This document shows, one piece after another, positions 5,169 through 48,032 of a stretch of DNA of 54,978 nt. Where the stretch lies: positions 1 through 54,978 of the IMG/VR virus record IMGVR_UViG_3300027963_000094; one strand, written 5' to 3'. This stretch comes from a virus. Taxonomy: Duplodnaviria; Caudoviricetes. A program made the position numbers and the translations under genes. Each line of letters starts with the position of its first letter. The first letter of the stretch is position 1. The notes under the pieces are model-generated. The model saw only the letters and a program-made list of their open reading frames with translations, searched no databases and had not been told where the DNA came from.

Positions 5169-5197
5169 GAAAAGAGGCAGGAGTTTATTCCTGCCCC
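5169..5197 (-). terminator. Rho-independent terminator after the major capsid gene
   Basis: Minus strand GGCAGGAATAAACTCCTGCC followed by TCTTTT. Confidence 0.7.
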
Positions 5198-5206
5198 CAC
5201 TTGGGT

Positions 5207-6121: not shown

Positions 6122-6136
6122 GGTTCACTCCCTCCT

Positions 6137-6709: not shown

Positions 6710-6751
6710 GATTGAGTCCTTTCAAATATTGAAATAAAAACTTTGTCATGT

Positions 6752-7288: not shown

Positions 7289-7290
7289 GA

Positions 7291-11725: not shown

Positions 11726-14700
11726 TTATTTTCTCCGCATCGTGAGGGCGTATCGCATTTGATCGGTAGTCGGATTTTGTTGGACTATACCACCATTTGC
11801 CTTTTTAATGAAGGCTTGACCCTGAGTTTGTGTACGAGATGCACGTTCAGCTTCCGCCTGTACGAGATCTTCCAGCTCGGCCTGAGACTTGGCACGTTGC
11901 CCCAGCTCTGCTCCAAAGCGGTTATTGTGGGTATCCATACCATAGTCAGCTGGCATTTGCCCTCCAAACATGGATTTGACAGCCTGAAGCGGGGAAGTCG
12001 TGAACTCGTGTGCTTTGCCTAGGAATTCAGCTGTCTTAGGCCCATACTTACGTGAAAGGGTGCCTGCTGCCAACATATGCCTTGCTGCATCCCGCTGGTC
12101 ATCTTGCCCTTTTTGGCCGGGGTACATCTCATAAGCTACAGTCTCCGAGTAAGTCGGGACACTGAATAGCCAAGGCGTTGGCACGTCAGGCTTTTTGACA
12201 GACCCACCGGCTTGGTAGCCACGAACTGGACCGCCATTGGCGTAGTCGTCCATGCCTTGGTATCTTGCAACAAGCGCTTCAAGCTTAACTTCAAGAGCCT
12301 GCATAAGCTCAGGTGACCATTCATATCCTGTTGTGGCCATGCCTAAGATGTCTTCAAATGCCTGTTCGCCACTGCGATTCAACGCACGTAAATGCTGTCG
12401 AATTAAACGAACAGCAGCACGCGGATTAGGCGTGTCTGTATAGTAACCGTCCTCAAGCAAGTTTACAATCTCTTCAGCTGTTGCACTATACTCAGCGTTT
12501 CTAGCAAGAGCTTCAGGTAAGCCACGTGTCTCAACAAGTTGCGCTAACGCCTCGCGTTGTGCCTGTGTTGGATTATGCGTGCCAATCTCATCATCGCCTC
12601 GAATAAAGTCCGCTAACTCAGCAGGTTGCCATTGTTCAGTAATCTCGCCATTGTCAAGCAAGCGTTGATAATCTCTAACGTAGTTATTGTATAGAACATC
12701 TAATTGCTCAGGGCTTATCTGCGCAATGGCGCCTTGATCTGGTACAGGTCTATCAGGGCGTATTTGCGTAATAGGCGGCTCAATCAAATCAACCATGTTA
12801 GCCAAGTCTCTAAGCGCTTGCGCAGTTGTAGGATTAGTCTCTATCTCTGCGGCCTCGTTAAGTCGAGTTGCAAACGCCGCAGGCTGTTCTCTAAGAGCTT
12901 CATCTACGTCAGGAAAACCTATGCCATCAGCAATAGTTTCACTAATGTGGCCAACATCACGTGCAGTAGGCGCAGGCGCGTTTTCGCGTAGATAATTAAC
13001 AAAGAGGTTAAAGTCTCCAACTTCAAAGCGTCGCATTGCAGGGGCAGGCGGTACACCATTTGGATTCAGTGCTCTAAGTTGCGGCTCTTCTAATAACCGC
13101 TGCATTTCAAGAGCAGTTGCTTGAGCCGCTCTAGCACGCTCGATAGGTGCTAAACCTCGTAACACCTCATGATCGTAGTCATTATTCTCTAGCAATGTTA
13201 AGGCGTCTACGCGATGCCCAGGCGCTTCTTCACCAATAATACGTTGCGCGAGATCACGAGGGTTAAACTCAATGTAATTGGCGCGTTGGCGAAGTGCTTG
13301 CGCGTAATCGCGACGTTCAGTTTCCGCTAAAGAGATCCAGTGATTGTTTGCCGCTTGATTCAATGGGTTGCTTAACTCATTTGCCAAGAAGCGCAGATCA
13401 TTAGGGTTTAATTCCGGATCATTTATCGCGTTTTCAAGTTGAAATATACGATCATTACGTTGATTATCAAGATCTGCAGGGCGTGGTTGCGCAGTTGCCT
13501 CAACGTCATCAGCTAGTCTATTTAACTCACGCGTAATAGTAGCATGGGTAGCGTTCACACTTTCTGCGCGCAACGCATTAGCGTAGCCTACAGGGTCTAC
13601 CTGCGGGTTATATTGCGCAGCTACATTGCGCGCCATTTCAGCGTAGCGACGAGCAATGGTCTCACTTAAAATGCGTAGCTCATCAGCGGCTGTATCCACA
13701 GTATTTTCAAAGTCAAAAGCCTGAGGTCGACGCGCAGGTGGCTGCGCATCTGCTGGCTCCCAATCACGTATGTACGCACTTTCCATTTGATCAGCCAACT
13801 CATTCAATACTATCTCTGCACTACCGTTAACAGCAGCGTCTGCCTGTTGCCGTAGAGCGCGAATATACGCATCGGTGTCATTTGCGGGGTCAAGCGCCCT
13901 GTCAATCTCCCCACGACCTTCTGAAATAAAGCGCAAAGCGGCGCGTACTTCGTCAGCAGTTTGCACACCCCATTGTCTATCAGCTGCCAACGCTGCATCA
14001 TGCGTCATACGCAAGTAATCAGGTCTTACTTCTGGCAATAAGCGATTGTTTTCTCGCCAATTTGCGTACTCGTCAATCATATTGCCAGTAATTTCAGGTG
14101 TGGTTGCATCTTCCCAGCGAGCTGCAAAGTCCTGTAACCAATCTACTTGCGCAGGCGATAAGCGATCGCGGTACGCAGTAAGCAGTTCTGGCGTGTCTAA
14201 ATTAGGCATTGGGTCGCCACGTTGCTCAAAAGCAAAAGGTTGTGCCGCTTCCTCAGCGGCTATACGCGCGGCTACGTAATCTGCTTGCAACCCTAAAGTT
14301 TGCTGTAAGTCTCTAATGCCTTCAGCAATAATGTTGGCAACTATACGTGGGCTATTGGCGTATTCGTTCTCAAGATCATATAGTCGTTGATTAGTAAGCT
14401 CTAATGCACGAACTGGACCTTGCAAGTTTTGATACGAATCAAAGTAATCACGGATGCCACTAAAGAATGTTTCTGCTTGAACAAACTGATTGCTCTCCCC
14501 TGCCTCATCAAATGCGCGTCTTTGAGAATCAAGTGTATTGTCGATTGACGACGCCACAGCGCCTGAAGTAGACGCTGACAAGCTTTCACTAGGCCGTTGC
14601 GACAAGACTGCAGGTGCTGATTCTTGCGGCGCATTAGCTTTAAGCTCTTCAACATAATTGCGAATGTCGCTGCTTGTGACAAACCGCGGCAGTCCTGACA

Positions 14701-17296
14701 GGTCATACTTTTTAAACGTAGTCACAGGTGTATTAACAACAGCGGCCAGCGCACTGTTCGACATACGCTTGCTATCGTAGATACCTAAGTTCTCATTCAT
14801 CTTATCGCTAACACCACGAATTCTATCTTCACGGCTGTTCAGATAAGACTTAATGCCTTCAACATACTCAGTCTTAACAGCACCGTTTTTGCGACCTGAC
14901 GCAAAGTTAATGTCATACTTACCAGATGAGCTAGGGTTAAAGTCAAAAATGGCAACAGGCTCACCTGTAACTACATCTCTAAAGCTAACCATTTGCGAGC
15001 CATTTGCAACAGCGTTAATGTATGTCCCTCTTGGGCTGGTTGCATTCGGGTCACGCTGGCCTGTAACAATGTCATAAATTGGAATGTACTGGCGATCACC
15101 GGTGCCGGGATGCCAAGGGTTTGGCTTATTTTTAACATTACCGCCTTCGCCAATGCAAACGTCCAAAGCCAAAGTGTCTTCACTAACTAATTGCGCAACT
15201 TGCTCAGGCGTAAAGCGATTGGTGATCTCCAACGCGCCAACGTTGCCAAAGACCTTGTCATTAGGAATATACAACGCCGCGCTTCGTGCAAACTGGTTAT
15301 CAGCATCCGTCTTAAATTGCTTCTCTTTAGCTTGCGCAAGCTTTTCTTTAGCAATACGACCTTCAGCAGTATCGCGTATATATTTTTCAACAGTCATCTT
15401 TGGAACTTTGTCCAACTTTATTTTACGCGACATCACATCGCTGTAAAAGCTTTTTGCGAGGTCACCAAACCCAAGCTCACGCAATCGTTGTGGTGATGCC
15501 ATATACACACGCTCTTCATCAGGTGTTCGCATTAGTGCAGGGTAAAACTGCTGCTCACCGTATCCAAGGTCTTCTTTCAAGCTCTTGGCGGTGTCTGCGT
15601 TAATTGCAATGTCAGTTGCAGCTTCATACGCAGAGCCTAAACGCAAATTGTCAACCACCTTTTGTTGCTTTCTATACGCGGCGTTTGCTTTATCAGACTC
15701 ACGTGATGCCTGTGCAAAAGGCTCATACCTTCCAAGATTCATACCTTCAGGCACAACACCTGTATTAGGGTCAACTGCGCCGTAACCTAGCTGCTGGGCA
15801 ATTGCCTCCTGCTCACGTTTACGAGTTGCAGCGTCAGCAGATTGTTGTACCAAGTCAGACAACTGCTGATTTGCTGCAACCAATGCCTCATCAGTTGGTG
15901 TTTTGACTGGCATGCCTGCTGCAGCGCGCTTATTGCTAACTATGGAACCTGTCATGTTTGCGCTATCAAATATTTCTGATGGCGGGTAAAACGTTAAGCC
16001 TTGGCTTGCCAGCTTGGCTGCAGGCTCATTAGGCGTGCCAACCTTCTCAATGATGTAATTGGTAAACTGGGAATTAAGCCAATTGGCTGCAGCTTCATGC
16101 ATTGCAGGCAACTCTTCTGCAGACGGTAAGTCAAGCTCCGCTCTGTATTGCATGCCTTTAGGCGTATTTAAGAACTCGTCGTACATCTCTAATGAGTGCG
16201 CAGCAGATGCTTCCCTATCGCCGAATCTGGCTTTATACGCCGCCAATGCCGCGCCTTCTGATGGGGCGTCAGGAAACATCTCATTGGCCTTTGTTTTAAG
16301 GAAAGACTCGAACGCTCTGCGTGCAGACGCTGATTCAGGTTTACCTAAAATGTTGTGCTGTATCTCGTCCAATGCCTGTACAGGCGTCATATTTGTATCA
16401 CTAATGACACTACGAACAAGATCACGTGCAGGTGTGTAAGTCGCAGCATCTTGCTTTGCAGTTGCAGGCAGTGTGGCAGATGTAATCCTTGACCCTTCAG
16501 GTCGCATGGCATATAGCTTAGGGTTTGTTGGCTGCATGGAAGCTGGGAGCCCAGGGATAGGTGGCAACCCTTGCATTTCCCTTTGCGCCATAATGTCGCC
16601 AATGCTATCAGCAACGCCTTGGAGCTTAGCGCCGTATGTAGGCTGACCTGTGATTGGGTCTAACCTTTGCATGCCAGATTGCGCGTTCACAAAGTCTGTA
16701 GGTATATCCTTGACTTGCCTGCCTACACGCGTGGCCTCAGCGCCCATAACCCGCAGATCATTAGGGGTAAATGCTGGGCGGCCAGTTGACATCTGCCCAA
16801 GGTACGCAGGCAGATCAGCCATGTACGGCGCAATCGCGCTTGTGAATTCCTGCGCCATTGGCGTTTGCGGCGCGTTCTGTTGCATGAACTGCGTGGCAAC
16901 TTTCTCGGCGTATGCAGGCGCTTTGCCTGATGTAAATGTGCCAGCAGGTGATGTGGTTAAGCTTTCACCAACGCCTTTGACCGCAGCCACAGCAGGCACG
17001 GTGATGATACCTGCAGCTTCACGCATGGACTTGGCCATCATTAGCGGATTGAACTTGGTGGCCAACTCAGTAAAGTTACCAGCAGCTGAGCCCAACGGGT
17101 CAGGCGGCGTTTGTGATGGCGGGACTGGGCGGCCGTAGCCGGGGATCTGTGATGCCAAGGACTGTGGAGCTACGAACTTCTCCATCTGCTGCGGCGTAAG
17201 TCTGTTCTGCTTTGACAGCTCTAGATTCATTTGATCTAGTGTAGGACCACCGTCATCGCCTATGATGTTACCTTGCGGATCGTAGATTGCTGCCAT
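11726..17296 (-). CDS. Giant multidomain putative internal virion / polyvalent protein (PcfJ-like domain; C-terminal DUF6973-like domain)
   Basis: Uninterrupted 1856-aa ORF between terL and portal; EDTLALDVCIG...YINAVANG...VSFRD segment; C-terminal DAARH...AHE...MDTHNNRFG. Confidence 0.75.
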   Translation of the reverse strand: MAAIYDPQGNIIGDDGGPTLDQMNLELSKQNRLTPQQMEKFVAPQSLASQIPGYGRPVPPSQTPPDPLGSAAGNFTELATKFNPLMMAKSMREAAGIITVPAVAAVKGVGESLTTSPAGTFTSGKAPAYAEKVATQFMQQNAPQTPMAQEFTSAIAPYMADLPAYLGQMSTGRPAFTPNDLRVMGAEATRVGRQVKDIPTDFVNAQSGMQRLDPITGQPTYGAKLQGVADSIGDIMAQREMQGLPPIPGLPASMQPTNPKLYAMRPEGSRITSATLPATAKQDAATYTPARDLVRSVISDTNMTPVQALDEIQHNILGKPESASARRAFESFLKTKANEMFPDAPSEGAALAAYKARFGDREASAAHSLEMYDEFLNTPKGMQYRAELDLPSAEELPAMHEAAANWLNSQFTNYIIEKVGTPNEPAAKLASQGLTFYPPSEIFDSANMTGSIVSNKRAAAGMPVKTPTDEALVAANQQLSDLVQQSADAATRKREQEAIAQQLGYGAVDPNTGVVPEGMNLGRYEPFAQASRESDKANAAYRKQQKVVDNLRLGSAYEAATDIAINADTAKSLKEDLGYGEQQFYPALMRTPDEERVYMASPQRLRELGFGDLAKSFYSDVMSRKIKLDKVPKMTVEKYIRDTAEGRIAKEKLAQAKEKQFKTDADNQFARSAALYIPNDKVFGNVGALEITNRFTPEQVAQLVSEDTLALDVCIGEGGNVKNKPNPWHPGTGDRQYIPIYDIVTGQRDPNATSPRGTYINAVANGSQMVSFRDVVTGEPVAIFDFNPSSSGKYDINFASGRKNGAVKTEYVEGIKSYLNSREDRIRGVSDKMNENLGIYDSKRMSNSALAAVVNTPVTTFKKYDLSGLPRFVTSSDIRNYVEELKANAPQESAPAVLSQRPSESLSASTSGAVASSIDNTLDSQRRAFDEAGESNQFVQAETFFSGIRDYFDSYQNLQGPVRALELTNQRLYDLENEYANSPRIVANIIAEGIRDLQQTLGLQADYVAARIAAEEAAQPFAFEQRGDPMPNLDTPELLTAYRDRLSPAQVDWLQDFAARWEDATTPEITGNMIDEYANWRENNRLLPEVRPDYLRMTHDAALAADRQWGVQTADEVRAALRFISEGRGEIDRALDPANDTDAYIRALRQQADAAVNGSAEIVLNELADQMESAYIRDWEPADAQPPARRPQAFDFENTVDTAADELRILSETIARRYAEMARNVAAQYNPQVDPVGYANALRAESVNATHATITRELNRLADDVEATAQPRPADLDNQRNDRIFQLENAINDPELNPNDLRFLANELSNPLNQAANNHWISLAETERRDYAQALRQRANYIEFNPRDLAQRIIGEEAPGHRVDALTLLENNDYDHEVLRGLAPIERARAAQATALEMQRLLEEPQLRALNPNGVPPAPAMRRFEVGDFNLFVNYLRENAPAPTARDVGHISETIADGIGFPDVDEALREQPAAFATRLNEAAEIETNPTTAQALRDLANMVDLIEPPITQIRPDRPVPDQGAIAQISPEQLDVLYNNYVRDYQRLLDNGEITEQWQPAELADFIRGDDEIGTHNPTQAQREALAQLVETRGLPEALARNAEYSATAEEIVNLLEDGYYTDTPNPRAAVRLIRQHLRALNRSGEQAFEDILGMATTGYEWSPELMQALEVKLEALVARYQGMDDYANGGPVRGYQAGGSVKKPDVPTPWLFSVPTYSETVAYEMYPGQKGQDDQRDAARHMLAAGTLSRKYGPKTAEFLGKAHEFTTSPLQAVKSMFGGQMPADYGMDTHNNRFGAELGQRAKSQAELEDLVQAEAERASRTQTQGQAFIKKANGGIVQQNPTTDQMRYALTMRRK

Positions 17297-23510: not shown

Positions 23511-23959
23511 CTAAAACTGTAACCATCCCTCTTATCGAGCTGCAGGAAATCTACCAAGGCCTTGAGGCTTTTGTCATTGACGCACCTGCTGATGCCATTG
23601 TCTTGGCGTCGTGGAAAGAGCAATTGGAATTGCGCATGGCAGCAGCACGCGCCCTTGGCCACCTCAGCGCATACGTTATTTACGCAACACCAAAACCTAC
23701 TATGCCAGATGAATACGAATACTCCTTAGATCACTATGGCTTAGACAATTGGCAAGCCGAGTGGGGTGATGGTGATATTGAACGCGACATTGTTGTTATG
23801 TATACCCCTACGCATCGCGGTTTTGACTACTGCGTTTTAATGGATGGCAATGACATTACAGCAACGCTTAACCCAGCCAACCGCAATGCGTATGAGGCGC
23901 ACATGTCAAAAGAATGCGCAGCCCGCGCTGCAACAGCAAATGATTATGCATATGACTAA
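23507..23959 (+). CDS. Hypothetical protein
   Basis: ATG at 23507 overlaps the previous stop; GGAGG RBS; 150 aa. Confidence 0.7.
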   Translation: MTKTVTIPLIELQEIYQGLEAFVIDAPADAIVLASWKEQLELRMAAARALGHLSAYVIYATPKPTMPDEYEYSLDHYGLDNWQAEWGDGDIERDIVVMYTPTHRGFDYCVLMDGNDITATLNPANRNAYEAHMSKECAARAATANDYAYD

Positions 23960-24359
23960 TTCAGAAAAGGTATTGGCATTCCGTCGCAAGATGGGTTTGC
24001 CAATCTCCACTACACCTACTCTGCTCTCGTCTGAGCAGGCCAGTTACTTTGCTCGCTTCATCATGGAAGAGCTTAGTGAATACCTTCGTGCTTGCGAGGA
24101 GAATAGCCTTGTTGATGCTGCTGATGCTTTGGTCGATCTTGTCTACGTCACCATGGGTTGCAGCCATGCTATGGGGTTACCTTTTGACCAGCTTTTTAAT
24201 GTGGTACACGAAGCAAACATGAACAAAGAACCAGCCAATGATTACATTAGGTCATTGCGCGGCTCACAATACGACGTCATCAAGCCCATGGGTTGGCAAG
24301 CCCCTGAGGCCATGATGTTGGCCATCATACAAACAGAACAACAGAAAGCAAAGCCATGA
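23952..24359 (+). CDS. All-alpha NTP pyrophosphatase (MazG/PRA-PH/dUTPase-dCTPase-like)
   Basis: MEELSEY...DAADALVDLVYV..G...VHEANMNK...KPMGWQAP pattern. Confidence 0.85.
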   Translation: MTNSEKVLAFRRKMGLPISTTPTLLSSEQASYFARFIMEELSEYLRACEENSLVDAADALVDLVYVTMGCSHAMGLPFDQLFNVVHEANMNKEPANDYIRSLRGSQYDVIKPMGWQAPEAMMLAIIQTEQQKAKP

Positions 24360-28675: not shown

Positions 28676-28956
28676 CCGCGGTTTTGCTTGAGCGGCATTT
28701 GGAGACTTACTTCTCTGCAGCTTGCAAGAAACGTGGCTTGCTTACGTTGAAGTTGAACGTACGCTATGCCCGTGGTTGGCCCGATCGTATTGTGCCGTTG
28801 AAAGGTGGCGGGGTTTTGTGGGTAGAACTAAAGCGGCCCGGGGGTAAAACCTCAGCGCTGCAGGACAAGGTGCATAACGACTTGCAAAAGTTTGGCCACC
28901 ACGTCCACATCATTGACTCTAAGGAAGGTATTGACAATGTTTTGGGAACCGCATGA
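28669..28956 (+). CDS. VRR-NUC domain nuclease
   Basis: GWPDRIV...WVELKRPGGK.SALQ pattern. Confidence 0.85.
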   Translation: MVTAVLLERHLETYFSAACKKRGLLTLKLNVRYARGWPDRIVPLKGGGVLWVELKRPGGKTSALQDKVHNDLQKFGHHVHIIDSKEGIDNVLGTA

Positions 28957-30334
28957 GTACCAGAAAGAAGCTGTAAAGTTTCTGGTGGAAAAAGGCTCGG
29001 CAGCTTTATGGCTGGATCCCGGGCTTGGTAAAACAGCTGTTGTGCTATCGGCTTTTAGAATCCTGAAGCTTAAAGGTTTGGCCAAGAAAATGCTGGTCAT
29101 TGCTCCACTCAGGCCTGTGCATGGCGTGTGGCCGCCTGAAGCTAAGAAGTGGGAGCAGTTTGCAGATTACTCAGTTGGCGTGCTGCATGGTGGAACCAAG
29201 GCTAAAGTCTTAAAGCAACAGCATGACATATATGTTATCAACTTTGAAGGCCTTGGCTGGCTGTCTTCGCAACTTAATGGCAAAGATTGGCCCTTCCAAA
29301 TCCTGACGGTGGATGAGATATCTTATATGAAAAACACCCAAACTCAAAGGTTTAAGACAATAAAGCCTTTGCTGGACAAGTTTGACCGCAGGTGGGGCTT
29401 AACCGGATCACCAGCGCCAAACAGTTTGCTTGACATCTTCGGCCCTCAGCTTATCCTTGACCAAGGTGCTACCTTTGGCCCTTACATCTCACGATTCCGT
29501 ACTGAATACTTCTTCCCTTCCGGTTACGGCGGGTATGAGTGGAAGCTGCAATCAGACGGTGAGGCTAGGATTCATGCGGCTTTGGCTGGCAAGGTGCTTC
29601 GTATGGCGGCGCTGGACCATCTAGATCTGCCCGAGTTAACTTACAACGACATTATGGTAGATCTACCACCTAATGCCAGAAAACTGTACGACGCCTTTGA
29701 AAACAACCTGACAGTGGAATTGAATAGCGGGAATGTAACGGCTGTCAACGCTGCTGTGGCCGTAATGAAAGGCCAGCAAATTGCCAATGGTGGCTCATAC
29801 TTGGATGATGATGGGAGTGGTAATGCTAGAATCTCAACGCATCTTCATGACGCGAAGACTGAAGCGGTTCTCGATCTGGTCGAGGAGCTATCAGGGCAAC
29901 CTTGCATCATCGGTTATCATTTTACGCATGACCTCGAGAGGCTTAAGGTTGCCTTTCCTAATGCGCCTATCATTGGCAGTGGGGTTATTGGTCGTAAACT
30001 TGATTCTGTTATTGATGATTGGAACGCCGGTAAGACATCAGTTCTTCTGGCTCACCCAATGTCGGCGGGTCACGGTCTTAACTTACAAGGTACTGGGCAT
30101 GCTGTCATCTGGTATTCGCTGACTTGGAGCCTTGAGATCTATGAACAGTTTATTCGCAGACTCTGGAGGCAGGGTCAAAAGAATCATATTGTTGTTCACC
30201 ACATCATGGCCAAAGACACCATTGATGAAGCCATTATGATGGCCATCAGAAGAAAAGATAAAACGCAGCAAACTTTGTTAACCGCAGTGCGTGATTACGT
30301 TAATCGTGATACAATCAATCCCGTTGACCATTGA
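28937..30334 (+). CDS. SNF2-family (DEAD-like) helicase
   Basis: HEYQ, LDPGLGKT, VDEIS, LTGSP, SAGHGLNLQ and RLWRQGQ motifs. Confidence 0.9.
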   Translation: MFWEPHEYQKEAVKFLVEKGSAALWLDPGLGKTAVVLSAFRILKLKGLAKKMLVIAPLRPVHGVWPPEAKKWEQFADYSVGVLHGGTKAKVLKQQHDIYVINFEGLGWLSSQLNGKDWPFQILTVDEISYMKNTQTQRFKTIKPLLDKFDRRWGLTGSPAPNSLLDIFGPQLILDQGATFGPYISRFRTEYFFPSGYGGYEWKLQSDGEARIHAALAGKVLRMAALDHLDLPELTYNDIMVDLPPNARKLYDAFENNLTVELNSGNVTAVNAAVAVMKGQQIANGGSYLDDDGSGNARISTHLHDAKTEAVLDLVEELSGQPCIIGYHFTHDLERLKVAFPNAPIIGSGVIGRKLDSVIDDWNAGKTSVLLAHPMSAGHGLNLQGTGHAVIWYSLTWSLEIYEQFIRRLWRQGQKNHIVVHHIMAKDTIDEAIMMAIRRKDKTQQTLLTAVRDYVNRDTINPVDH

Positions 30335-30338
30335 AAGG
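30307..30338 (+). promoter_or_regulatory. Extended -10 promoter and RBS box for the base-modification operon
   Basis: TG-A-TACAAT at 30307-30315; TGACCATTGAAAGG at 30325-30338. Confidence 0.55.
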
Positions 30339-30345
30339 AATCTAT

Positions 30346-30618
30346 ATGCAACTTACCGCTATTGTCGAAAGACCTAACCCCATACAACAGGAAGATACTG
30401 ACATGTCAGAAGCAAAGCTACGCGCCCGTGCAAACAAAAAAGCAATCATTACTTTGGTTGCAGAAACCAACCCAAAGCGTAACAACACATTGTCACGTGA
30501 ACGTTTTGCTTTGTACCGCACTGGCATGACAGTTGCTGAATACATTCAAGCCGGTGGCAGATCAGGCGATGTGAATCACGACGCTGCTGAGGGCTACATC
30601 ACGCTTGCATTGCCATGA
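30346..30618 (+). CDS. Small conserved phage protein (NPKR...RF..Y..GMTV.EY...GG..D)
   Basis: ATG at 30346 (or an internal Met near 30403); stop overlaps the start of the glycosyltransferase-like gene. Confidence 0.7.
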   Translation: MQLTAIVERPNPIQQEDTDMSEAKLRARANKKAIITLVAETNPKRNNTLSRERFALYRTGMTVAEYIQAGGRSGDVNHDAAEGYITLALP

Positions 30619-31526
30619 ATATCTTAATTACCGGCGTTACAGAGACGCATACCAACCATCCACAGCGTGCTAGCTCTACCAAGTTTATTTCCATCCCCGA
30701 ATTGATGGCATCAGCTTTTGGTCGTATGGGGCATCACGTTGATCATCGTGCCGTTACATCGGGTGAAGACCTCTCACGTTACGACAAAGTGTTTGTGTAC
30801 CTATACCCCTTGGATCACAATGCTTTGAACCCTGATGGGGCCTTGTGGGCCTTAGAAAGCCGCTTTGATGCGTATGTTTGCCTTGATGATTGGGCTTTCC
30901 AAAAGATCCTACCATCATGGGAAAATAAGATCGCACCAGAATCATTGTGTGAGCATACATGGATTGCGCCGCTATTTCCATGGGGCAGCACACAAGCCAT
31001 GGGTTTGCCAGTGGAAGACATTATTGCATGGGATCCAAGCCCGCTGTATGAAATGCCTGCTGTGCATCAAATGTCTTGGGATCGTCGCAAAACCGAGTGG
31101 TACAATGCATCCCTTTCAAAAGAGGCGCATGACTGGGCTTCGGCACAACACCTTGCATGGCCTATTCACAGTGTAGGTGGCAAGGCACTAGGTCAGCCTA
31201 GAATCCTTGAGTCCGATGTTGTTTGGCAGTACGGTAGCTATAAAGGCGTGCTGTGCCCTACGTATAAGCATGCAGGCTGCGGTTGGTGGCGTGTTCGTTA
31301 CTTGCACGCCGCGCATGCCGGCTGCGTTCTTGGCGGCGACCCCAAGGAGCTTGGCGTCATTGACCCATCATACGATTACACACTCCATGAATTAGAAAGC
31401 ATGGATGATTACCAACTTCAACTGACTGCAGCGCAGCAGGCTACTTACTTGCGCACCGCGTCGCTTGAAGACACACTATCAAAACTTGAGGGTATCTTAA
31501 ATGATCGTAATTCTAGAAGGGGCTGA
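30615..31526 (+). CDS. Putative DNA glycosyltransferase (GT-B / T4 BGT-like)
   Basis: Rossmann-like start MNILITG...MGHHVD...DLSRYDKVFV...LDDW; C-terminal GVLCPTY.HAGCGWWRVRY; adjacent to a dNMP kinase and a dCMP-type TS homolog. Confidence 0.55.
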   Translation: MNILITGVTETHTNHPQRASSTKFISIPELMASAFGRMGHHVDHRAVTSGEDLSRYDKVFVYLYPLDHNALNPDGALWALESRFDAYVCLDDWAFQKILPSWENKIAPESLCEHTWIAPLFPWGSTQAMGLPVEDIIAWDPSPLYEMPAVHQMSWDRRKTEWYNASLSKEAHDWASAQHLAWPIHSVGGKALGQPRILESDVVWQYGSYKGVLCPTYKHAGCGWWRVRYLHAAHAGCVLGGDPKELGVIDPSYDYTLHELESMDDYQLQLTAAQQATYLRTASLEDTLSKLEGILNDRNSRRG

Positions 31527-32442
31527 TGGCGGGGGAAAGACTACCCTGTCAGAGACCTTGCGACAACGATTGCAGAAGGACAAGATGACCCATGTCGTAA
31601 AGCATGGTCCTTATCGTGGTATGAATACCGAGGACCTTTGCCGTACGTATTTTCGTGGCATGACAGCGGCGTTGACCTACGATGACCACGTCATCATGGA
31701 TAGGTCATGGCTGTCTGAGCCAGTCTATGGCAACGTGTACCGTAAAGGGGATAACCGCATTGATATGCCGCGCCGTAGAATGTTAGAGCGTGCAGCCTTG
31801 GCACGAGGTGTTGTGGTTATTCATTGCCAACCGGATTTTGAAGTGTGTATGCAAACATTCAAAGATCGCATTGAGGATGAGTACTTGGATAATATCAAAC
31901 AATTGGAGCAAGTGTATGAAGGCTACACATCATTGCCTATGGATACCTCACTGCCAGTCATCACCTACGACTATACCAAAGATGATATAGAAGAGTTGTT
32001 CATTAAGCTTGCAACCAAGACAATGACTAACAAATCATCCGGTGGCGGCGCCTTTGTTGAAGGCAATACACTAATGCTTTGCGATAAGGGGCCTCGTACA
32101 AATGTTAAGTCCACCGCAGCCGTGGTGCCTTTCATTAACTTCTTGGATAATGATGGCCCTAGCAGAATGCTGGCTGAAACTCTGGAGCGTGAGAATGTAC
32201 CTGAAACTGGTTTGTACTGGGTTAACACTCAAACTTACCAAGGCACACCTATGGATTCAGCCTTCATCAAACAACTGAAGCCAAAACGTATCTACGCCCT
32301 TGGCAACAATGCCTACACGTGGGCAATAAACAATGAAGTGCCGGTAATTAAGTTACCACCGCCTTTGTATCATATGCAACACTATCCCGACCAACCCTAT
32401 TTAATTACGGAAGCTGATTATGGAAATGCTGATTCGCAATGA
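31501..32442 (+). CDS. dNMP kinase fused to a degenerate UDG-like domain
   Basis: P-loop EGADGGGKTT and DRSWLSEPVYG; C-terminal LYWVN...LKPKRIYALGNNA...KLPPP resembles the UDG superfamily. Confidence 0.8.
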   Translation: MIVILEGADGGGKTTLSETLRQRLQKDKMTHVVKHGPYRGMNTEDLCRTYFRGMTAALTYDDHVIMDRSWLSEPVYGNVYRKGDNRIDMPRRRMLERAALARGVVVIHCQPDFEVCMQTFKDRIEDEYLDNIKQLEQVYEGYTSLPMDTSLPVITYDYTKDDIEELFIKLATKTMTNKSSGGGAFVEGNTLMLCDKGPRTNVKSTAAVVPFINFLDNDGPSRMLAETLERENVPETGLYWVNTQTYQGTPMDSAFIKQLKPKRIYALGNNAYTWAINNEVPVIKLPPPLYHMQHYPDQPYLITEADYGNADSQ

Positions 32443-33202
32443 GCCTGAGCTCATCAATCTTTACAACGTGCTGCAGCAGCATGGCACTTGGACAAGTCCA
32501 CGTGGTGAACGGTGCCTTGAGATTGAAAACTTTACTTACACGGTCAACCCCTTTGTAAGGTTCAATTCATTCAAAGGTCGTAACTTCAATGTGAAGTACC
32601 TTAAGCGCGAAATGTCTTGGTACATCAAAGCTGACCCGTATGATCTTAGCATTGCTGATCACGCTGCGCAGTGGGGCAAGATTGTAGCCAACGGCAAGTT
32701 GAATAGCAACTACGGCAGCTATTGGTTTGGCAAACACGGCGCTCTGCATATTGCAAAGTTGCTGACGCAGGATCCAATGTCCCGCCGCGCTGTGATTCCA
32801 ATGTACGGCACTGACATAGACCATATGGATATAGAGGCAAAGGATGTTCCATGCACGCTGGCCATTGAGTTCCGAATCAGGAATGGTAGATTGAACGCCA
32901 GAGCCATCATGCGAAGCCAAGATATTCTTTGGGGCATGGCAAATGACTTGCCAACTTTCAGCTTTTTGCAGGAAATTGTGGCTAACTTGGTTGGCGCCGA
33001 GATGGGAACATTGACAATATCTGCAGGTTCTTTCCATGTCTATGAGTCTCGATTAACCATGTTCAATGACATCATCAATACCAATATCCATGAAGTGCTG
33101 GTTGACAAGCCTCCACGGATTAACAGGTACGAGGCCAATCTCTTGGCAGTCAAATCCATTAACCCTACTTTTGAGTTTGCAAAATGGCTATCGAACGTGT
33201 AG
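32420..33202 (+). CDS. Thymidylate-synthase-fold dCMP-modifying enzyme (dCMP hydroxymethylase-like)
   Basis: SPRG, SRRA, catalytic PCT, MRSQDILWGMANDL (Asp where dUMP-specific ThyA has Asn), GSFHVYE. Confidence 0.85.
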   Translation: MEMLIRNEPELINLYNVLQQHGTWTSPRGERCLEIENFTYTVNPFVRFNSFKGRNFNVKYLKREMSWYIKADPYDLSIADHAAQWGKIVANGKLNSNYGSYWFGKHGALHIAKLLTQDPMSRRAVIPMYGTDIDHMDIEAKDVPCTLAIEFRIRNGRLNARAIMRSQDILWGMANDLPTFSFLQEIVANLVGAEMGTLTISAGSFHVYESRLTMFNDIINTNIHEVLVDKPPRINRYEANLLAVKSINPTFEFAKWLSNV

Positions 33203-33366
33203 ATTTATCATTCGCTGTTCAAAAAGAACTTAGAATATTTGTTTTTGAACTTATTCGTGACGGTTATCAAATGGAGGATATACTGACGGCATTGGCCGCT
33301 CTAAAAGTGGAAATGGCTTCTGCCATGGTTTGGCAAGATGTAATAAGTACAAAAGACGTGATATAA
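33184..33366 (+). CDS. Hypothetical protein
   Basis: 60-aa ORF overlapping the end of the TS homolog. Confidence 0.55.
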   Translation: MAIERVDLSFAVQKELRIFVFELIRDGYQMEDILTALAALKVEMASAMVWQDVISTKDVI

Positions 33367-33414
33367 TTCACGTTATGGGATAACCCCATACTTTGTAAAC
33401 TGACTATTGAAAGG
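33359..33414 (+). promoter_or_regulatory. Extended -10 promoter/leader element (TGATATAATTCAC-hairpin-AACTGACTATTGAAAGG)
   Basis: Perfect TGnTATAAT; TATGGG/CCCATA hairpin; box shared with 21913-21929. Confidence 0.7.
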
Positions 33415-33421
33415 AATTGAA

Positions 33422-34132
33422 ATGTTAAATAAAATTCGTTGGACCAAGATAGAACGCAGCATCGTCATTGAGACGGCAGTGACGTTCTACAATGAAGGCA
33501 CCTATAGCCCAATTGCAGCAATTAGACAAGCTCAGCAAGTTGTGCTATTGCCCAATCGCCGCCGCACACTTGCTAGCCACTCAGCAGCGCCTGACTTGAT
33601 CAAATTGCTCAAGCAAAAGGCGGCGCAGGATGTGCCAAAGCAAAAGGTGGTGGAAACTACCACACCAGTGGAAATAATGCCTCCAGCGCCACTGGTAGTG
33701 CCTAAAACCGATGCACCAGTTGATCTCGTTGAGCAGTTGGTGAATACTATTACACAACGATTCATTCTGGGGCTTCGTGAAAGCCTGCAGATTGCCGTTA
33801 AAGAGCTTGAGCATGAGTTTAAGCTTCCAAGGCATAACCCTGAGTACAACGCAATTGGCAAGTCATTGCCTAAGGTAGTCATCATTGGGTTGCTGGGTGA
33901 TCAGGTCTACGCCATCACCAAAGAATTCTCTGATCGGTACGAGGTAAAATGCATTGATACTGATAGAGCCATGGGTATGTCACCGCCACAAGCTAATGCA
34001 TACCTTTTGATGAAGAACTTCATCAACCATCCGCTGTACCACAAGTACCAAGCATTTCCCAATCATGTTTTAATAGACGGCGGCATGTCAACACTTCGCA
34101 TGTGGCTCAATACTAAAGGACAAGACTTATGA
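33422..34132 (+). CDS. Hypothetical protein with C-terminal DUF2325-like domain
   Basis: 236 aa; KVVIIGLLGDQ...FINH...DGGMSTL. Confidence 0.65.
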   Translation: MLNKIRWTKIERSIVIETAVTFYNEGTYSPIAAIRQAQQVVLLPNRRRTLASHSAAPDLIKLLKQKAAQDVPKQKVVETTTPVEIMPPAPLVVPKTDAPVDLVEQLVNTITQRFILGLRESLQIAVKELEHEFKLPRHNPEYNAIGKSLPKVVIIGLLGDQVYAITKEFSDRYEVKCIDTDRAMGMSPPQANAYLLMKNFINHPLYHKYQAFPNHVLIDGGMSTLRMWLNTKGQDL

Positions 34133-46168: not shown

Positions 46169-47400
46169 GTGAACGTACCTCCAGCAATGCCGGTGGTAAA
46201 CGTGCCTGAGCCAGTCACAGAAACGCCAGTAGCAGTTGCTTTAAGCCTTTGCGTGCCAAGCACTGAAATGCCAAACTCGCCAGCTGCAGGTCGATACACG
46301 CCGGTGCTGGTTTCAGCAGCAAAGTTAAGTGACGGTGTTCCGACAGTTCCGTCAACTAAACTAATAGACGTTGCGCCGGCTTGGGTTGTATTGGCGTTTA
46401 AAAAGTTAATGCTATCACAAATCAGCGTGGCTTGCTGCCCAGGAGGAATTGTAGCAGTGGCTCCAAGGCCGGTTGTAATAGTAAGGCTATAGCCATTATC
46501 CGTTGTCTGGTTTGAGATGACGTACAGGTTAACAATTGGCGGAAACGTTACGGTCACGTTGCTTGTTAAATTGCCAACGTACTCTTGAATATTGTTTGCC
46601 GCTTCGTTGTTGGTCAACAAAACCGCGCCACCCGTAACACTCTTTGTTAAAGAGGTAAACACAAATGAGGTGCTTACTCCATAGCCAACGGTGACATACG
46701 CCGTGCCAGTGCAAACAATAAACGCCGACTCTGTTGGGTTAAACGTCTTGGTGCTATTGCCATCAATCAGCTCAGCGCCAGTACAAGAAATAATGAATGA
46801 GCCTGTGCCATTGTTCTTAAACAACGTGAACCAGTTATTGCCTAACGTTGCAGCTGCTGGAAGTGTTGCAGTGCCTGCACCGCCGCCCCACACTCTGGTT
46901 TGCGCTCTGTCTGTAGTTGCAAATGTAGAGGTCGATGTGATTGCCGCTGAAGGATGGCTTTGATTCAGCGTTACGCCGCTTGCAACTAATCCGTAGCCTG
47001 CCAACGTGGTGGCGTCGGCGCTGGACGTGCCAGTTCCAAAGGCAATAATGCCCCAAGTGCCTTGGCTGGTTGAATTAGTTGTTATATAGATATACTTGGA
47101 TTCTCCGGCAGCCACTGAGACGATGGTATTTGTGCCTGCGTAGTCCTTAACAGTGAACGTATTGGCGCCAATGTTGCGAATTAGCGCGTCGTTGCCTACA
47201 GATGTTTGATCCGCCGGTGGCATATACAAGTTAAGACCGGCAGTGCTAGCCGTGACCTGCATGATACGCGCAGCAAAGTCAGAGTTGGTTGTACTATTGG
47301 AAGGCCAGTTTAACTGCGTGTTGGCAGTTAGCGTGACGGCGCGGTAGCTAACATCAGTTGGCTGAATAACATCACCGGTAAAAGGGCTTACATAGCTCAT
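46165..47400 (-). CDS. Tail structural / fibre-attachment protein
   Basis: 411 aa, Thr/Gly-rich; DGTVGTPSLNFAAETSTGVYR; ends TTGIAGGTFT. Confidence 0.65.
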   Translation of the reverse strand: MSYVSPFTGDVIQPTDVSYRAVTLTANTQLNWPSNSTTNSDFAARIMQVTASTAGLNLYMPPADQTSVGNDALIRNIGANTFTVKDYAGTNTIVSVAAGESKYIYITTNSTSQGTWGIIAFGTGTSSADATTLAGYGLVASGVTLNQSHPSAAITSTSTFATTDRAQTRVWGGGAGTATLPAAATLGNNWFTLFKNNGTGSFIISCTGAELIDGNSTKTFNPTESAFIVCTGTAYVTVGYGVSTSFVFTSLTKSVTGGAVLLTNNEAANNIQEYVGNLTSNVTVTFPPIVNLYVISNQTTDNGYSLTITTGLGATATIPPGQQATLICDSINFLNANTTQAGATSISLVDGTVGTPSLNFAAETSTGVYRPAAGEFGISVLGTQRLKATATGVSVTGSGTFTTGIAGGTFT

Positions 47401-48032
47401 GAATCCACCGCAATGGCTTGACGATCTGCAATGCGAAGCTTATCTTCAGCCATCAGTGTTTGCATGATCAAATCATAATTTTGCTGCCACATTGGCATAC
47501 GCTCGTCATTCTTCAGGAATGGCATCGCTTGCATCAGTGACCCGTACAGCAACGCCTGAGGAGCGTATATGGTAAACCAATTAGTTTGATTCGATGAATC
47601 CAGAGGTTGTACTCGTTCATAATATAACACCTCAAACGCGTAGTTAGCGTTTGGCGTTGGCGCTATCAACCAGTTGGAGTAATCATAGTCGCAGTAGTAC
47701 AAAGGCACATCAGTGGCTGTTGAATCCGGCCAGTAATTGCGAAGGTACTCGTATTTACGAAGCAGTACGGGCTGACGATCACCACTTACCGTCACGTTCA
47801 TGGAAACAGTCTTATGCCAACGAGCGGGCTTGGCAATAACGCCATTGCCTGATACCATTGTGCTTGTATTGACCGTTAAGTTGCCAAGGAACTTAATCTG
47901 GCTAGCAATGATCTGCTCAGCCAACATAATGAAAAGCGGAATCTTATTAAGCGTAGCAGTGTCCGTACGCTCTAAATAAGACTCAATATTTTCCACCAAA
48001 GTGGTGTATGTCATTACTGCAGCAGTTGCCAT
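47397..48032 (-). CDS. Tail adaptor (tail tubular protein A-like)
   Basis: MTYTTLVENIESYLER...IPLFIMLAE...IAPTPNANY...ALLYGSL..AMPFLKND pattern. Confidence 0.7.
   Translation of the reverse strand: MATAAVMTYTTLVENIESYLERTDTATLNKIPLFIMLAEQIIASQIKFLGNLTVNTSTMVSGNGVIAKPARWHKTVSMNVTVSGDRQPVLLRKYEYLRNYWPDSTATDVPLYYCDYDYSNWLIAPTPNANYAFEVLYYERVQPLDSSNQTNWFTIYAPQALLYGSLMQAMPFLKNDERMPMWQQNYDLIMQTLMAEDKLRIADRQAIAVDS

What the first reader, a model, noticed from the sequence alone, without database searches (positions are those of the whole stretch)
30307..33202. Self-contained cytosine-hypermodification operon (dCMP-type TS homolog, dNMP kinase fusion, putative DNA glycosyltransferase) in a small polA podovirus-like phage
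Seen in sequence: four overlapping genes behind their own TGnTACAAT element. The TS-fold protein reads RSQDILWGMANDL and keeps the catalytic Cys (PCT). Established: dUMP-specific ThyA has Asn at this position (E. coli N177), whereas T4 gp42 dCMP hydroxymethylase has Asp in an ND dipeptide, as here. T-even phages pair gp42 with a dNMP kinase, a dCTPase and DNA glycosyltransferases. Inference: this phage makes a 5-substituted dCTP (hydroxymethyl, hydroxy or methyl), incorporates it with its polA, and adds a sugar or other group after replication using 30615-31526. No sugar-nucleotide biosynthesis genes are visible, so the donor would come from the host. The transferase is divergent, so the final base may be undescribed.
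Basis: partly seen in the sequence, partly recalled or inferred. Interest (0 to 1): 0.85.

Follow-up and report, generated by a model that had tools for sequence, protein, structure and literature searches.

The report
Phage genes for sugar-modified hydroxymethylcytosine DNA
An uncultured phage carries a conserved gene row that most likely replaces cytosine in its DNA with 5-hydroxymethylcytosine and then attaches a sugar, a known anti-restriction strategy built here with an uncharacterised transferase family and an unusual kinase fusion.

Summary
The genes are real. The order helicase, small ORF, 303-aa protein, 313-aa kinase fusion, 260-aa thymidylate-synthase (TS) homolog is kept in all 44 related viral contigs, as far as each contig reaches.

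- **TS homolog:** it has the T4 gp42-type dCMP hydroxymethylase signature: Cys146, L143D, D169 kept, N177D in E. coli numbering. It lacks the D169N mark of 5-hydroxy-dCMP synthases (PMC13326640).
- **303-aa protein:** its model has a GT-B glycosyltransferase fold. It belongs to a large unnamed family. Members are fused to C5-cytosine DNA methylases or sit beside UDP-galactopyranose mutase in T4-like and other phages.
- **Kinase:** it is YorR/Tmk-like and homologous to RB69 gp45. It does not match SP10 gp186, a 5-hmU DNA kinase. Its C-terminal domain is probably UDG-like.
- **Pyrophosphatase:** a MazG-like enzyme, a candidate dCTPase, lies 6 kb upstream.
- **Cultured relative:** phage AXL3 carries the same kinase fusion and Asp-type TS, and its DNA resists G/C-site restriction enzymes.
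- **Promoter:** the claimed TGnTACAAT promoter is no more frequent than chance.

Verdict: a T-even-like pathway in a new variant. No chemistry was tested.

The parts
30307..30315 (+). TGATACAAT, an extended -10-like word inside the end of the helicase gene; not shown to be a promoter
   Evidence: Read. There are 3 matches in the window against 2.39 expected. Not listed by the promoter scan.
30346..30618 (+). Small conserved ORF of unknown function: 90 aa from the ATG with AAGGA upstream, or 95 aa from the TTG at 30331. Its stop overlaps the next start (ATGA).
   Evidence: Conserved at 47-99% identity in 44 of 44 related loci. No Pfam, PHROG or NCBIfam match. The Atlas gives only unnamed viral clusters.
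30615..31526 (+). 303-aa GT-B-fold protein of an uncharacterised phage family; candidate DNA (5hmC) glycosyltransferase
   Evidence: AF2 model: pLDDT 82.2, pTM 0.84. Foldseek against PDB: SenB 8jjn E 3.5e-5, TM 0.60; also GtfC, BshA, LmbT. BFVD: family members, then named viral glycosyltransferases. phrog_14998 'unknown function'; no Pfam. The family has 715 representatives, with fusions to C5 DNA methylase. It lies next to UDP-galactopyranose mutase in Aes012, FBB1 and DSL-LC01.
31501..32016 (+). N-terminal P-loop nucleotide kinase domain (residues 1 to about 172) of the 313-aa fusion; candidate 5hm-dCMP kinase
   Evidence: Pfam Thymidylate_kin 35.2 bits. Foldseek YorR 3kb2 E 2.3e-8. Profile against YorR 3.2e-11. 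hhalign to RB69 gp45 96.3% and to Xp15 gp37 98%. No match to the 5-HMUDK SP10 gp186 (5.7%).
32026..32442 (+). C-terminal domain (residues 176-313) of the fusion; probably UDG-superfamily fold with eroded motifs; role unknown
   Evidence: Pfam UDG in 2 of 23 homologs. Type-4 UDG chains at E about 0.25 on profile positions 177-246. 25 of 30 named Atlas hits are UDG-bearing viral clusters, score 0.90-0.91. Alternating strands and helices in the model, which I read as compatible with a UDG-type alpha/beta fold (recalled topology, not tested). hhalign to a Pfam-recognised UDG domain is not significant (9.4%).
32420..33202 (+). 260-aa thymidylate-synthase-fold enzyme with the dCMP hydroxymethylase signature
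   Evidence: PDB: MilA 1.8e-17, T4 gp42 4.8e-13. Alignment anchored on E. coli ThyA: C146, L143D, D169, N177D. RSQD against RSQN of RB69 gp48. Signature kept in 38 of 38 related loci. Far below the NCBIfam thymidylate synthase cut-offs.
33184..33366 (+). 60-aa ORF overlapping the TS stop; conserved in close relatives; unknown function
   Evidence: matches in 28 of 44 loci.
33407..34132 (+). 241-aa (or 236-aa) co-directional ORF of unknown function that ends the row
   Evidence: No family match. 331 unnamed homologs.
23844..24359 (+). MazG-like all-alpha NTP pyrophosphohydrolase; candidate dCTPase of the pathway, 6 kb upstream
   Evidence: Pfam PRA-PH 1.2e-16. PDB: 3nl9 and DR2231. 32% identical to AXL3 gp30 and 28% to Xp15 gp38, which sit directly upstream of the kinase-TS pair in those phages.

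Best explanation
This is a T-even-style cytosine replacement and decoration pathway. Inferred steps follow. The TS-fold enzyme (32420-33202) converts dCMP to 5-hydroxymethyl-dCMP using methylene-tetrahydrofolate. The translationally coupled Tmk/YorR-like kinase (N-domain of 31501-32442) makes the diphosphate. Host NDP kinase makes the triphosphate. The MazG-like pyrophosphatase (23844-24359) probably removes dCTP. The phage PolA then incorporates 5hmC. After replication the GT-B-fold protein (30615-31526) transfers a sugar from a host nucleotide-sugar to the 5-hydroxymethyl group in DNA, which protects the genome from restriction. The UDG-like domain on the kinase either removes uracil or deaminated bases during replication, or is a non-catalytic base or DNA binding module. 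Shown here: folds, signature residues, homologies and conserved gene order. Not shown: any enzymatic activity, the donor sugar or the base in virion DNA.
For: TS homolog: the best solved relatives are cytosine hydroxymethylases. C146, L143D, D169 and N177D are seen in an alignment anchored on E. coli ThyA, beside T4 gp42, which has the same four residues. SPO1 gp29, a dUMP hydroxymethylase, keeps Asn. These residue rules are stated in PMC13326640 sections 24 and 28. The signature is kept in 38 of 38 related loci.
Kinase: Tmk/YorR fold. It is homologous to RB69 gp45, which lies two genes from the modified-dCMP synthase gp48, with the transferase between them. The same kinase stands directly upstream of an Asp-type TS homolog in AXL3, ctUtU524, DSL-LC01, Xp15 and MD-2021a.
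Experimental proxy: AXL3 virion DNA was cut by only 2 of 37 enzymes, both with A/T-only sites (PMC7504290 passages).
Transferase: GT-B fold. 4 of 10 long family members scanned carry a C5-cytosine DNA methylase domain and 1 a dUTPase_2 domain. It lies next to UDP-galactopyranose mutase in three phage lineages. Tandem copies lie near an Asp-type TS in 4 of 4 L060-type contigs examined, out of 15 fetched. A preprint reports that phage GT-B enzymes often neighbour ThyS (section 9).
Pyrophosphatase: same family as the one next to the kinase-TS pair in AXL3 and Xp15.
Against: No activity or DNA chemistry was measured. The residue rules for product type are correlative and come from one paper. The 303-aa protein has no sequence match to any named GT family. 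It has no significant match to T4 beta-GT (23%) and none to RB69 gp46/47. Its fold matches are moderate (TM 0.5-0.6), and the best one, SenB, glycosylates a small molecule rather than DNA. No nucleotide-sugar gene was found among the 33 ORFs scanned against Pfam; smaller ORFs were not scanned. The nearest solved relatives of the MazG-like protein include DR2231; from recall, not from a call, DR2231 prefers dUTP. dCTPase activity is therefore a guess. The kinase's substrate is inferred from context only.
Confidence: 0.55

Rival explanations
1. The phage makes 5hmC (or another C5-substituted C) DNA, but the 303-aa GT-B-fold protein does not act on DNA. It glycosylates something else, such as a small molecule, a host envelope component or a virion protein, or it has a non-transferase GT-B activity such as an epimerase.
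For: The best fold matches act on small molecules: SenB, BshA, LmbT. There is no significant similarity to T4 beta-GT. No sugar-nucleotide genes were found among the window ORFs scanned. The preprint notes that about 65% of phage GT contigs lack a nearby base-modification gene.
Against: The position between the replication helicase and the kinase-TS pair is fixed in 44 of 44 loci. The family is fused to C5-cytosine DNA methylases, a UDG domain and a dUTPase_2 domain. It co-occurs with Asp-type TS homologs in unrelated phage lineages.
Confidence: 0.22
2. The kinase fusion works on DNA, not on free nucleotides. The UDG-like domain flips 5hmC out of the duplex and the P-loop domain phosphorylates its hydroxymethyl group, by analogy with 5-hmU DNA kinases. 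This creates a leaving group for a further substitution, so the final base is not a simple glycoside.
For: A base-flipping-type domain is fused to a kinase and lies beside a base-modifying enzyme. The T4-like phages RB69 and DLP3 keep a Tmk-like kinase in the modification cluster although they also have a gp1-type dNMP kinase that was shown to act on the modified dCMP (and Table 1).
Against: There is no match to the Pfam 5-HMUDK families, while SP10 gp186 matches them strongly. hhalign to SP10 gp186 gives 5.7%. The fold and P-loop context are those of nucleotide monophosphate kinases. Stand-alone kinase domains without the UDG-like part occupy the same position in Xp15 and MD-2021a. No other candidate kinase for 5hm-dCMP was seen in the window. 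No aGPT-Pplase-like transferase was found.
Confidence: 0.07
3. The TS homolog makes 5-hydroxy-dCMP, as in RB69, DLP3 and RL38J1, or 5-methyl-dCMP, as reported for Xp12 (abstract listing of PMC7653180), rather than 5-hydroxymethyl-dCMP.
For: It shares the Asp at N177 and an acidic residue at L143 with the 5hoC synthases. It also shares the three-part arrangement (kinase, transferase, TS) seen in RB69.
Against: All tested 5hodCMP synthases have Asn at D169 (PMC13326640 section 28); the window has Asp, RSQD against RSQN in RB69 gp48. A bulky hydrophobic residue at L143 is linked with methyl products (section 24); the window has Asp.
Confidence: 0.08
4. This is an ordinary nucleotide-supply module: thymidylate synthase plus thymidylate kinase making dTTP, with an unrelated neighbouring gene.
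For: Database names ('thymidylate synthase', 'thymidylate kinase') are given to homologs. The AXL3 paper read it this way.
Against: Asp replaces the uracil-specifying Asn177. Scores are far under the NCBIfam equivalog cut-offs for ThyA and Tmk. AXL3 also carries a separate ThyX, and its DNA resists G/C-site enzymes.
Confidence: 0.04

Closest known systems
T4 (T-even) glucosyl-5hmC pathway: gp42 dCMP hydroxymethylase, gp1 dNMP kinase, gp56 dCTPase, alpha- and beta-glucosyltransferases
   Same: A TS-fold enzyme with the same four signature residues as gp42. A nucleotide kinase, an all-alpha NTP pyrophosphatase and a GT-B-fold transferase are present. In T4 too the transferase gene (beta-gt) lies next to gene 42.
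   Different: The kinase is Tmk/YorR-like and carries a UDG-like domain; T4 gp1-type structures are not among the fold matches printed. The transferase shows no significant similarity to T4 beta-GT. The replicase is PolA in a 55-kb genome with a podovirus-type SU10 adaptor. The pyrophosphatase is of the family seen in AXL3 and Xp15; it was not compared with T4 gp56.
Arabinosyl- and hexosyl-5-hydroxycytosine clusters of RB69, DLP3 and RL38J1 (PMC13326640)
   Same: The same three-part core: a Tmk-like 'nucleotide kinase', a first transferase and a TS homolog, adjacent (Table 1). The window kinase is homologous to RB69 gp45. YorR (3kb2) is the top fold hit both for DLP3 gp78 in the paper's Table 1 and for the window kinase.
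   Different: The window TS keeps D169, so it is the hydroxymethyl type rather than the hydroxy type. The transferase family is different. There are no sugar-nucleotide synthesis genes. The gene order is different. The kinase carries an extra domain.
Kinase-TS modules of Stenotrophomonas phage AXL3, Pseudoxanthomonas phage PW916, Actinomycetia phage DSL-LC01, Xanthomonas phage Xp15
   Same: Full-length kinase plus C-terminal-domain fusion (about 30% identity; 92-96% of the query covered in AXL3 and PW916). In AXL3 and DSL-LC01 it overlaps an Asp-type TS homolog. The same NTP pyrophosphatase family is present. AXL3 DNA is restriction-resistant at G/C sites.
   Different: Those phages pair the module with other tailoring genes: a methyltransferase in AXL3, a NodU-type carbamoyltransferase in Xp15 and MD-2021a. 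Only DSL-LC01 also has a member of the 303-aa family, and there it has its own UDP-galactopyranose mutase. None has had its base identified, as far as searches found.
Phage C5-methyltransferase/TET-dependent GT-B DNA glycosyltransferases (Pyle et al. preprint 10.1101/2023.12.21.572611)
   Same: GT-B fold with BshA among the structural matches. Some members of the 303-aa family are fused to C5 DNA methylases. The preprint reports that GT-B hits often neighbour ThyS.
   Different: Here 5hmC would be made before replication by a TS homolog. I could not test whether the 303-aa family is among the preprint's GT-B profiles, because its sequences are in supplements that were closed.

Membership tests
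dCMP hydroxymethylase (T4 gp42 type, thymidylate synthase superfamily) | Thymidylate synthase fold and sequence family | tested here: met
   Pfam PF00303 65.3 bits against a cut-off of 24.3. PDB T4 gp42 4.8e-13 and MilA 1.8e-17.
dCMP hydroxymethylase (T4 gp42 type, thymidylate synthase superfamily) | Catalytic Cys (E. coli C146) | tested here: met
   Invariant column C146 in alignment A5.
dCMP hydroxymethylase (T4 gp42 type, thymidylate synthase superfamily) | Asp at E. coli N177 (cytosine rather than uracil) | tested here: met
   GMAND against E. coli GLPFN and T4 GFRND. Rule from PMC13326640 section 24.
dCMP hydroxymethylase (T4 gp42 type, thymidylate synthase superfamily) | Acidic residue at E. 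coli L143 (water access; hydroxymethyl rather than methyl) | tested here: met
   KDVPC against E. coli ALAPC and T4 SDFMC. Rule from section 24.
dCMP hydroxymethylase (T4 gp42 type, thymidylate synthase superfamily) | Formation of 5hm-dCMP from dCMP and methylene-THF | not testable with these tools
   Needs an enzyme assay or in vivo LC-MS.
5-hydroxy-dCMP synthase (RB69 gp48 type) | Asn at E. coli D169 | tested here: not met
   The window has RSQD; RB69 gp48 has RSQN. Rule from section 28.
Canonical thymidylate synthase ThyA | Asn177 and an equivalog-level score | tested here: not met
   Asp at 177. Best NCBIfam score 62.8 bits against a cut-off of 174.55.
GT-B glycosyltransferase | Two Rossmann-like domains; structural match to GT-B enzymes | tested here: met
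   Model pLDDT 82.2. Ten of the 12 PDB matches at E<=0.001 are chains of two glycosyltransferases, SenB and GtfC; TM 0.5-0.6. Named viral glycosyltransferases appear in BFVD.
GT-B glycosyltransferase | Membership of a named GT sequence family | tested here: not met
   No Pfam or NCBIfam match. phrog_14998 'unknown function'. The family profile finds no PDB sequence at E<=1.
GT-B glycosyltransferase | Nucleotide-sugar donor use and transfer to 5hmC in DNA | not testable with these tools
   Context only: methylase fusions and neighbouring UDP-galactopyranose mutase.
T4 beta-glucosyltransferase family | Sequence or profile homology to T4 beta-GT | tested here: not met
   hhalign probability 23.4% over 49 columns.
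Tmk/YorR-like nucleotide monophosphate kinase | P-loop and kinase fold | tested here: met
   EGADGGGKT. PF02223 35.2 bits against a cut-off of 27. Foldseek 3kb2 2.3e-8 and thymidylate kinases. RB69 gp45 96.3%.
Tmk/YorR-like nucleotide monophosphate kinase | dTMP kinase equivalog | tested here: not met
   TIGR00041 40 bits against a cut-off of 83.25.
[quoted passage not shown] | Match to PF18748 or PF18723, or to a proven member | tested here: not met
   No such Pfam hit, while SP10 gp186 hits both. hhalign to SP10 gp186 5.7%.
Uracil-DNA glycosylase superfamily (C-terminal domain) | Match to PF03167 or a solved UDG, with motifs A and B | tested here: inconclusive
   The window protein has no Pfam UDG hit. 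2 of 23 homologs hit at E<=0.01. Type-4 UDGs at E about 0.25. Atlas 25 of 30. hhalign to the UDG domain of P0282 9.4%. The His-Pro of distant homologs reads Pro-Pro in the window clade. No fold search of the domain alone could be run.

The most novel reading that the evidence does not exclude
The 303-aa family is a major, so far uncharacterised class of DNA glycosyltransferases. It may put sugars not yet described on 5hmC: galactofuranose in the members that travel with UDP-galactopyranose mutase, and an unknown host-derived sugar here. The UDG-like domain on the kinase would be a repurposed, non-excising reader or flipper of the modified base that couples nucleotide supply to replication or to decoration. 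The virion base of this abundant uncultured clade would then be a new one.
Probability: 0.2. Interest if true: 0.7.

Novelty: new variant of a known kind. Interest (0 to 1): 0.45.

Why it matters
Hypermodified bases decide which restriction, CRISPR and type IV defence systems a phage escapes. They are also sources of DNA-modifying enzymes used as tools. This locus points to three things worth testing:
- a large GT-B family with no Pfam or NCBIfam match and a PHROG of unknown function (715 clusters at 50% identity), tied to cytosine modification by fusions and neighbours;
- a kinase family that recurs beside Asp-type TS homologs across unrelated phages, directly upstream in five, including the restriction-resistant cultured phage AXL3;
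- a UDG-like domain attached to that kinase.
The clade is common in metagenomes: 44 viral contigs and dozens of protein clusters (81 and 94 listed). Its DNA chemistry may therefore affect how well such phages are recovered by sequencing.

Tried and rejected
- **Own promoter:** rejected. TGNTACAAT is no more frequent than chance.
- **Near-identical or related DNA in cultured phages:** none found by blastn.
- **5-hydroxycytosine reading:** rejected on D169.
- **5-HMUDK reading of the kinase:** rejected on Pfam and hhalign.
- **Xp15 gp37 and the MD-2021a 165-aa ORF:** I first guessed these were stand-alone UDG-like domains. hhalign showed they are stand-alone kinase domains.
- **Homology of the 303-aa family to T4 beta-GT and to RB69 gp46/47:** not found. 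Its profile finds no PDB sequence.
- **UDG-like domain profile:** an HMM of the domain found nothing among the transferase-family proteins, including P0282, which has a Pfam UDG domain. hhalign to that domain was not significant.
- **Complex prediction:** run on the 303-aa protein with the UDG-like domain; it returned no verdict (score 0.00). This says nothing for or against binding.
- **Small ORF and the 241-aa ORF:** no function found.
- **Scan with P0196:** found no viral relatives.
- **Not done:** no TS phylogeny was built, because there were too few references of proven function. Sequencing runs were not searched. I did not check whether Aes012 and FBB1 carry a gp42 homolog. The supplements of PMC13326640 and of the Pyle preprint were closed; they may hold sequences that would show whether the 303-aa family or this kinase has already been tested.
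- **Claim that the kinase/UDG-like fusion and this transferase family are uncharacterised:** it rests on searches and on database names only.

Full report
**What is there.** The window is a whole IMG/VR virus record of 54,978 bases, 99% complete by CheckV. Between 28,000 and 34,700 the + strand carries these genes in order:
- a PD-(D/E)XK nuclease and a VRR-NUC protein;
- an SNF2-type helicase (28892-30334);
- a small ORF (30346-30618 from its ATG);
- a 303-aa ORF (30615-31526);
- a 313-aa ORF (31501-32442);
- a 260-aa ORF (32420-33202);
- a 60-aa ORF (33184-33366) and a 241-aa ORF (33407-34132).

They are real genes. A scan of viral contigs with the 303-aa protein gave 44 loci at 63-100% identity. 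In all 44, helicase, small ORF and the 303-aa gene stand in this order on one strand. The kinase gene follows in 41 and the TS gene in 38. Each absence is at a contig end.

**The promoter claim fails.** TGATACAAT is present at 30307-30315, within the last codons of the helicase gene. The pattern TGNTACAAT occurs 3 times in the window against 2.39 expected, and 45 of 100 shuffles do as well. The consensus promoter scan lists nothing there. The row is more simply read as part of the replication gene block.

**The TS-fold enzyme.**
- It matches Pfam Thymidylat_synt. Its best solved relatives are MilA CMP 5-hydroxymethylase (1.8e-17) and T4 gp42 dCMP hydroxymethylase (4.8e-13), ahead of true thymidylate synthases.
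- I aligned it with E. coli ThyA taken from the K-12 record, T4 gp42, SPO1 gp29 and other phage homologs.
- In E. coli numbering the window enzyme has C146, Asp at L143 (KDVPC), Asp at D169 (RSQD) and Asp at N177 (GMAND). T4 gp42 has the same four residues. SPO1 gp29, a dUMP hydroxymethylase, keeps Asn at 177.
- PMC13326640 (sections 24 and 28 read) gives three rules. N177D gives preference for dCMP. An acidic residue at L143 goes with hydroxymethyl rather than methyl products. D169N marks every tested 5-hydroxy-dCMP synthase.
- A pairwise alignment with RB69 gp48, a proven 5hodCMP synthase, shows RSQN there against RSQD here.
- The three motifs are kept in 38 of 38 related loci that cover them. 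Scores against the NCBIfam thymidylate synthase equivalogs are far below their cut-offs.
- I conclude that the enzyme is most likely a dCMP hydroxymethylase. The product call rests on correlative residue rules, not on an assay.

**The kinase fusion.**
- Residues 1 to about 172 match thymidylate kinase weakly in Pfam. The AF2 model of the whole protein is confident (pLDDT 90.4).
- Foldseek's best PDB match is YorR of the SPbeta prophage (3kb2, 2.3e-8), followed by thymidylate and deoxynucleoside kinases. A family profile finds YorR at 3.2e-11.
- YorR and thymidylate kinase 4s35 are also the listed matches of DLP3 gp78, the 'nucleotide kinase' of the arabinosyl-5hoC cluster (Table 1).
- The family profile matches RB69 gp45, the equivalent gene, at 96.3% probability.
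- It does not match SP10 gp186, a proven 5-hmU DNA kinase (5.7%). SP10 gp186 does match the Pfam HMUDK families, and the window protein does not.
- The full-length fusion occurs in the cultured phages AXL3 and PW916 and in uncultured ctUtU524. In DSL-LC01 a 331-aa 'thymidylate kinase' stands in the same place but was not compared directly. In AXL3, ctUtU524 and DSL-LC01, whose annotation I read, the kinase gene sits directly upstream of, and where annotated overlaps, a TS homolog with Asp at position 177.
- In Xp15 and Acinetobacter phage MD-2021a, a stand-alone copy of the kinase domain holds the same position (98.0% and 96.5%).
- This fixed pairing is the main reason to assign the kinase to the product of the TS homolog.

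**The C-terminal domain (residues 176-313).** In the alignment of 23 homologs, distant members show G-E/D, P-F, a W-x-N strand end, an A-L-G strand and H-P-Q in this order. The window clade reads C-D-K-G-P and P-P-P at the first and last of these. Four weak lines agree on a UDG-superfamily fold:
- Pfam UDG in 2 of 23 homologs (best E 0.0018);
- type-4 UDG chains at E about 0.25, all on profile positions 177-246;
- 25 of 30 named Atlas neighbours are viral UDG-bearing clusters at scores 0.90-0.91, a range that shuffled proteins reach 4-10 times in 100;
- alternating strands and helices in the model, which I read as compatible with a UDG-type alpha/beta fold; the topology is recalled, not tested.

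A profile comparison with a Pfam-recognised UDG domain was in register but not significant (9.4%). I could not search the domain's fold alone. I hold the UDG-like fold at roughly three in four. Its role is open. PolA enzymes fused to an active UDG are described in phages with modified thymine (PMC13697223, abstract read). Replication-coupled removal of uracil is therefore a precedent. The eroded motifs also allow a non-catalytic role.

**The 303-aa protein.**
- It has no Pfam or NCBIfam match, and its PHROG has no known function.
- A profile search of 1.84 billion representatives found 715 relatives at E<=0.001.
- Of 10 long members scanned, 4 carry a C5-cytosine DNA methylase domain, and one of these also has a Pfam UDG domain. 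Two carry SAM methyltransferase domains, 1 a dUTPase_2 domain, and 3 nothing recognisable.
- In cultured phages it has 42 tblastn matches.
- In the T4-like Aeromonas phage Aes012, the T4-like Erwinia phage FBB1 and the lake actinophage DSL-LC01, it lies directly beside UDP-galactopyranose mutase.
- DSL-LC01 also has a 'thymidylate kinase' of fusion length (331 aa), an Asp-type TS and a MazG-like gene.
- I examined four of 15 further viral contigs. All four show an Asp-type TS, dCMP deaminase, PolA, then two tandem family members followed by a dUTPase_2-type pyrophosphatase and a C5 methylase.
- The AF2 model (pLDDT 82.2, pTM 0.84) matches GT-B enzymes in the PDB: SenB selenosugar synthase (E 3.5e-5, TM 0.60), GtfC, BshA and LmbT.
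- In BFVD it matches family members first (TM 0.72-0.78), then many named viral glycosyltransferases, including those of the hypermodified phage SP-15.
- It shows no significant profile similarity to T4 beta-GT and none to RB69 gp46/47.
- Fold plus context make a DNA glycosyltransferase the best reading. The best fold matches act on small molecules, and nothing here shows a DNA acceptor.

**Other parts of the pathway.** A MazG-like pyrophosphatase at 23844-24359 is 32% identical to AXL3 gp30 and 28% to Xp15 gp38. Both of those sit next to the kinase-TS pair in their phages. Its solved relatives are DR2231 and 3nl9, so its specificity is unknown. No nucleotide-sugar synthesis gene was found among the 33 window ORFs scanned against Pfam.

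**Experimental anchor.** For AXL3, the paper reports that 37 restriction enzymes were tried and only TasI and Tru1I, both with A/T-only sites, cut the virion DNA (PMC7504290, passages read). AXL3 also has a separate ThyX. This fits a cytosine replacement made by the same kinase-TS module. The base itself has not been identified in what I could search.

**Comparison and novelty.** The logic is that of T-even phages, and of the RB69, DLP3 and RL38J1 clusters, which share the kinase, transferase and TS core. A preprint reports that phage GT-B enzymes found in IMG/VR often neighbour ThyS (section 9). The general architecture is therefore known. What differs here:
- a transferase family without any characterised member that I could find;
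- a Tmk-like kinase carrying a UDG-like domain;
- the setting, a 55-kb PolA phage with an SU10-type adaptor, whose nearest cultured relatives by terminase are Caulobacter phages at 47-48% identity.

I class it as a new variant of a known kind, of moderate interest.

**Confidence.** I put synthesis of a C5-modified dC at about 0.85. Hydroxymethyl as the group is about 0.75. DNA glycosylation by the 303-aa protein is about 0.55-0.6. The whole statement together is about 0.55.

Noticed in passing
window 33407-34132: The 241-aa ORF that closes the row has no family match but 331 unnamed homologs. The 120 listed are mostly single-member clusters at 78-95% identity, so it looks more variable than its neighbours. 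It is 37-93% identical across the related loci, against 63-100% for the transferase.
   Followed up: partly
window 23844-24359: The MazG-like NTP pyrophosphatase is of the same family as the 'hydrolase' genes placed directly upstream of the kinase-TS pair in AXL3, ctUtU524 and Xp15. Here it is separated from the pair by PolA, nucleases and the helicase.
   Followed up: partly
L054 (Xp15) 2339-5762 and L053 (MD-2021a) 1904-5804: Xp15 and Acinetobacter phage MD-2021a combine the stand-alone kinase and an Asp-type TS homolog with a NodU/Nol-type carbamoyltransferase. This suggests a carbamoylated hydroxymethylcytosine made before replication. Xp15 gp37 is annotated 'putative DNA polymerase subunit' but is a homolog of this kinase.
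   Followed up: partly
L048 (AXL3) 4602-7744: AXL3 pairs the kinase fusion and Asp-type TS with a methyltransferase (gp31). Its paper reads gp28/gp29 as ordinary dTMP synthesis, while the residue pattern points to cytosine modification, in line with its G/C-site restriction resistance.
   Followed up: partly
L060 7956-13294 (and L062, L063, L074): Freshwater viral contigs carry two tandem paralogs of the 303-aa family, followed by a dUTPase_2-type pyrophosphatase, a C5-cytosine methylase and a pyrimidine-dimer glycosylase, with an Asp-type TS 7.5 kb upstream.
   Followed up: partly
window 11726-17296 and 47397-48032: The 1856-aa protein between terminase and portal has a DUF6973 domain at residues 1719-1813. 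A 211-aa protein matches the SU10 adaptor family, which supports a podovirus-like tail.
   Followed up: no
window 31098-31106: A second TGNTACAAT word (TGGTACAAT) lies inside the 303-aa gene. It is one of only three in the window, a count expected by chance.
   Followed up: yes
rank 6: A 351-residue UniParc entry without a name is the best BFVD match outside the family (E 2.8e-7, TM 0.56). From recall, 351 residues is the length of T4 beta-glucosyltransferase, but its identity could not be checked.
   Followed up: no
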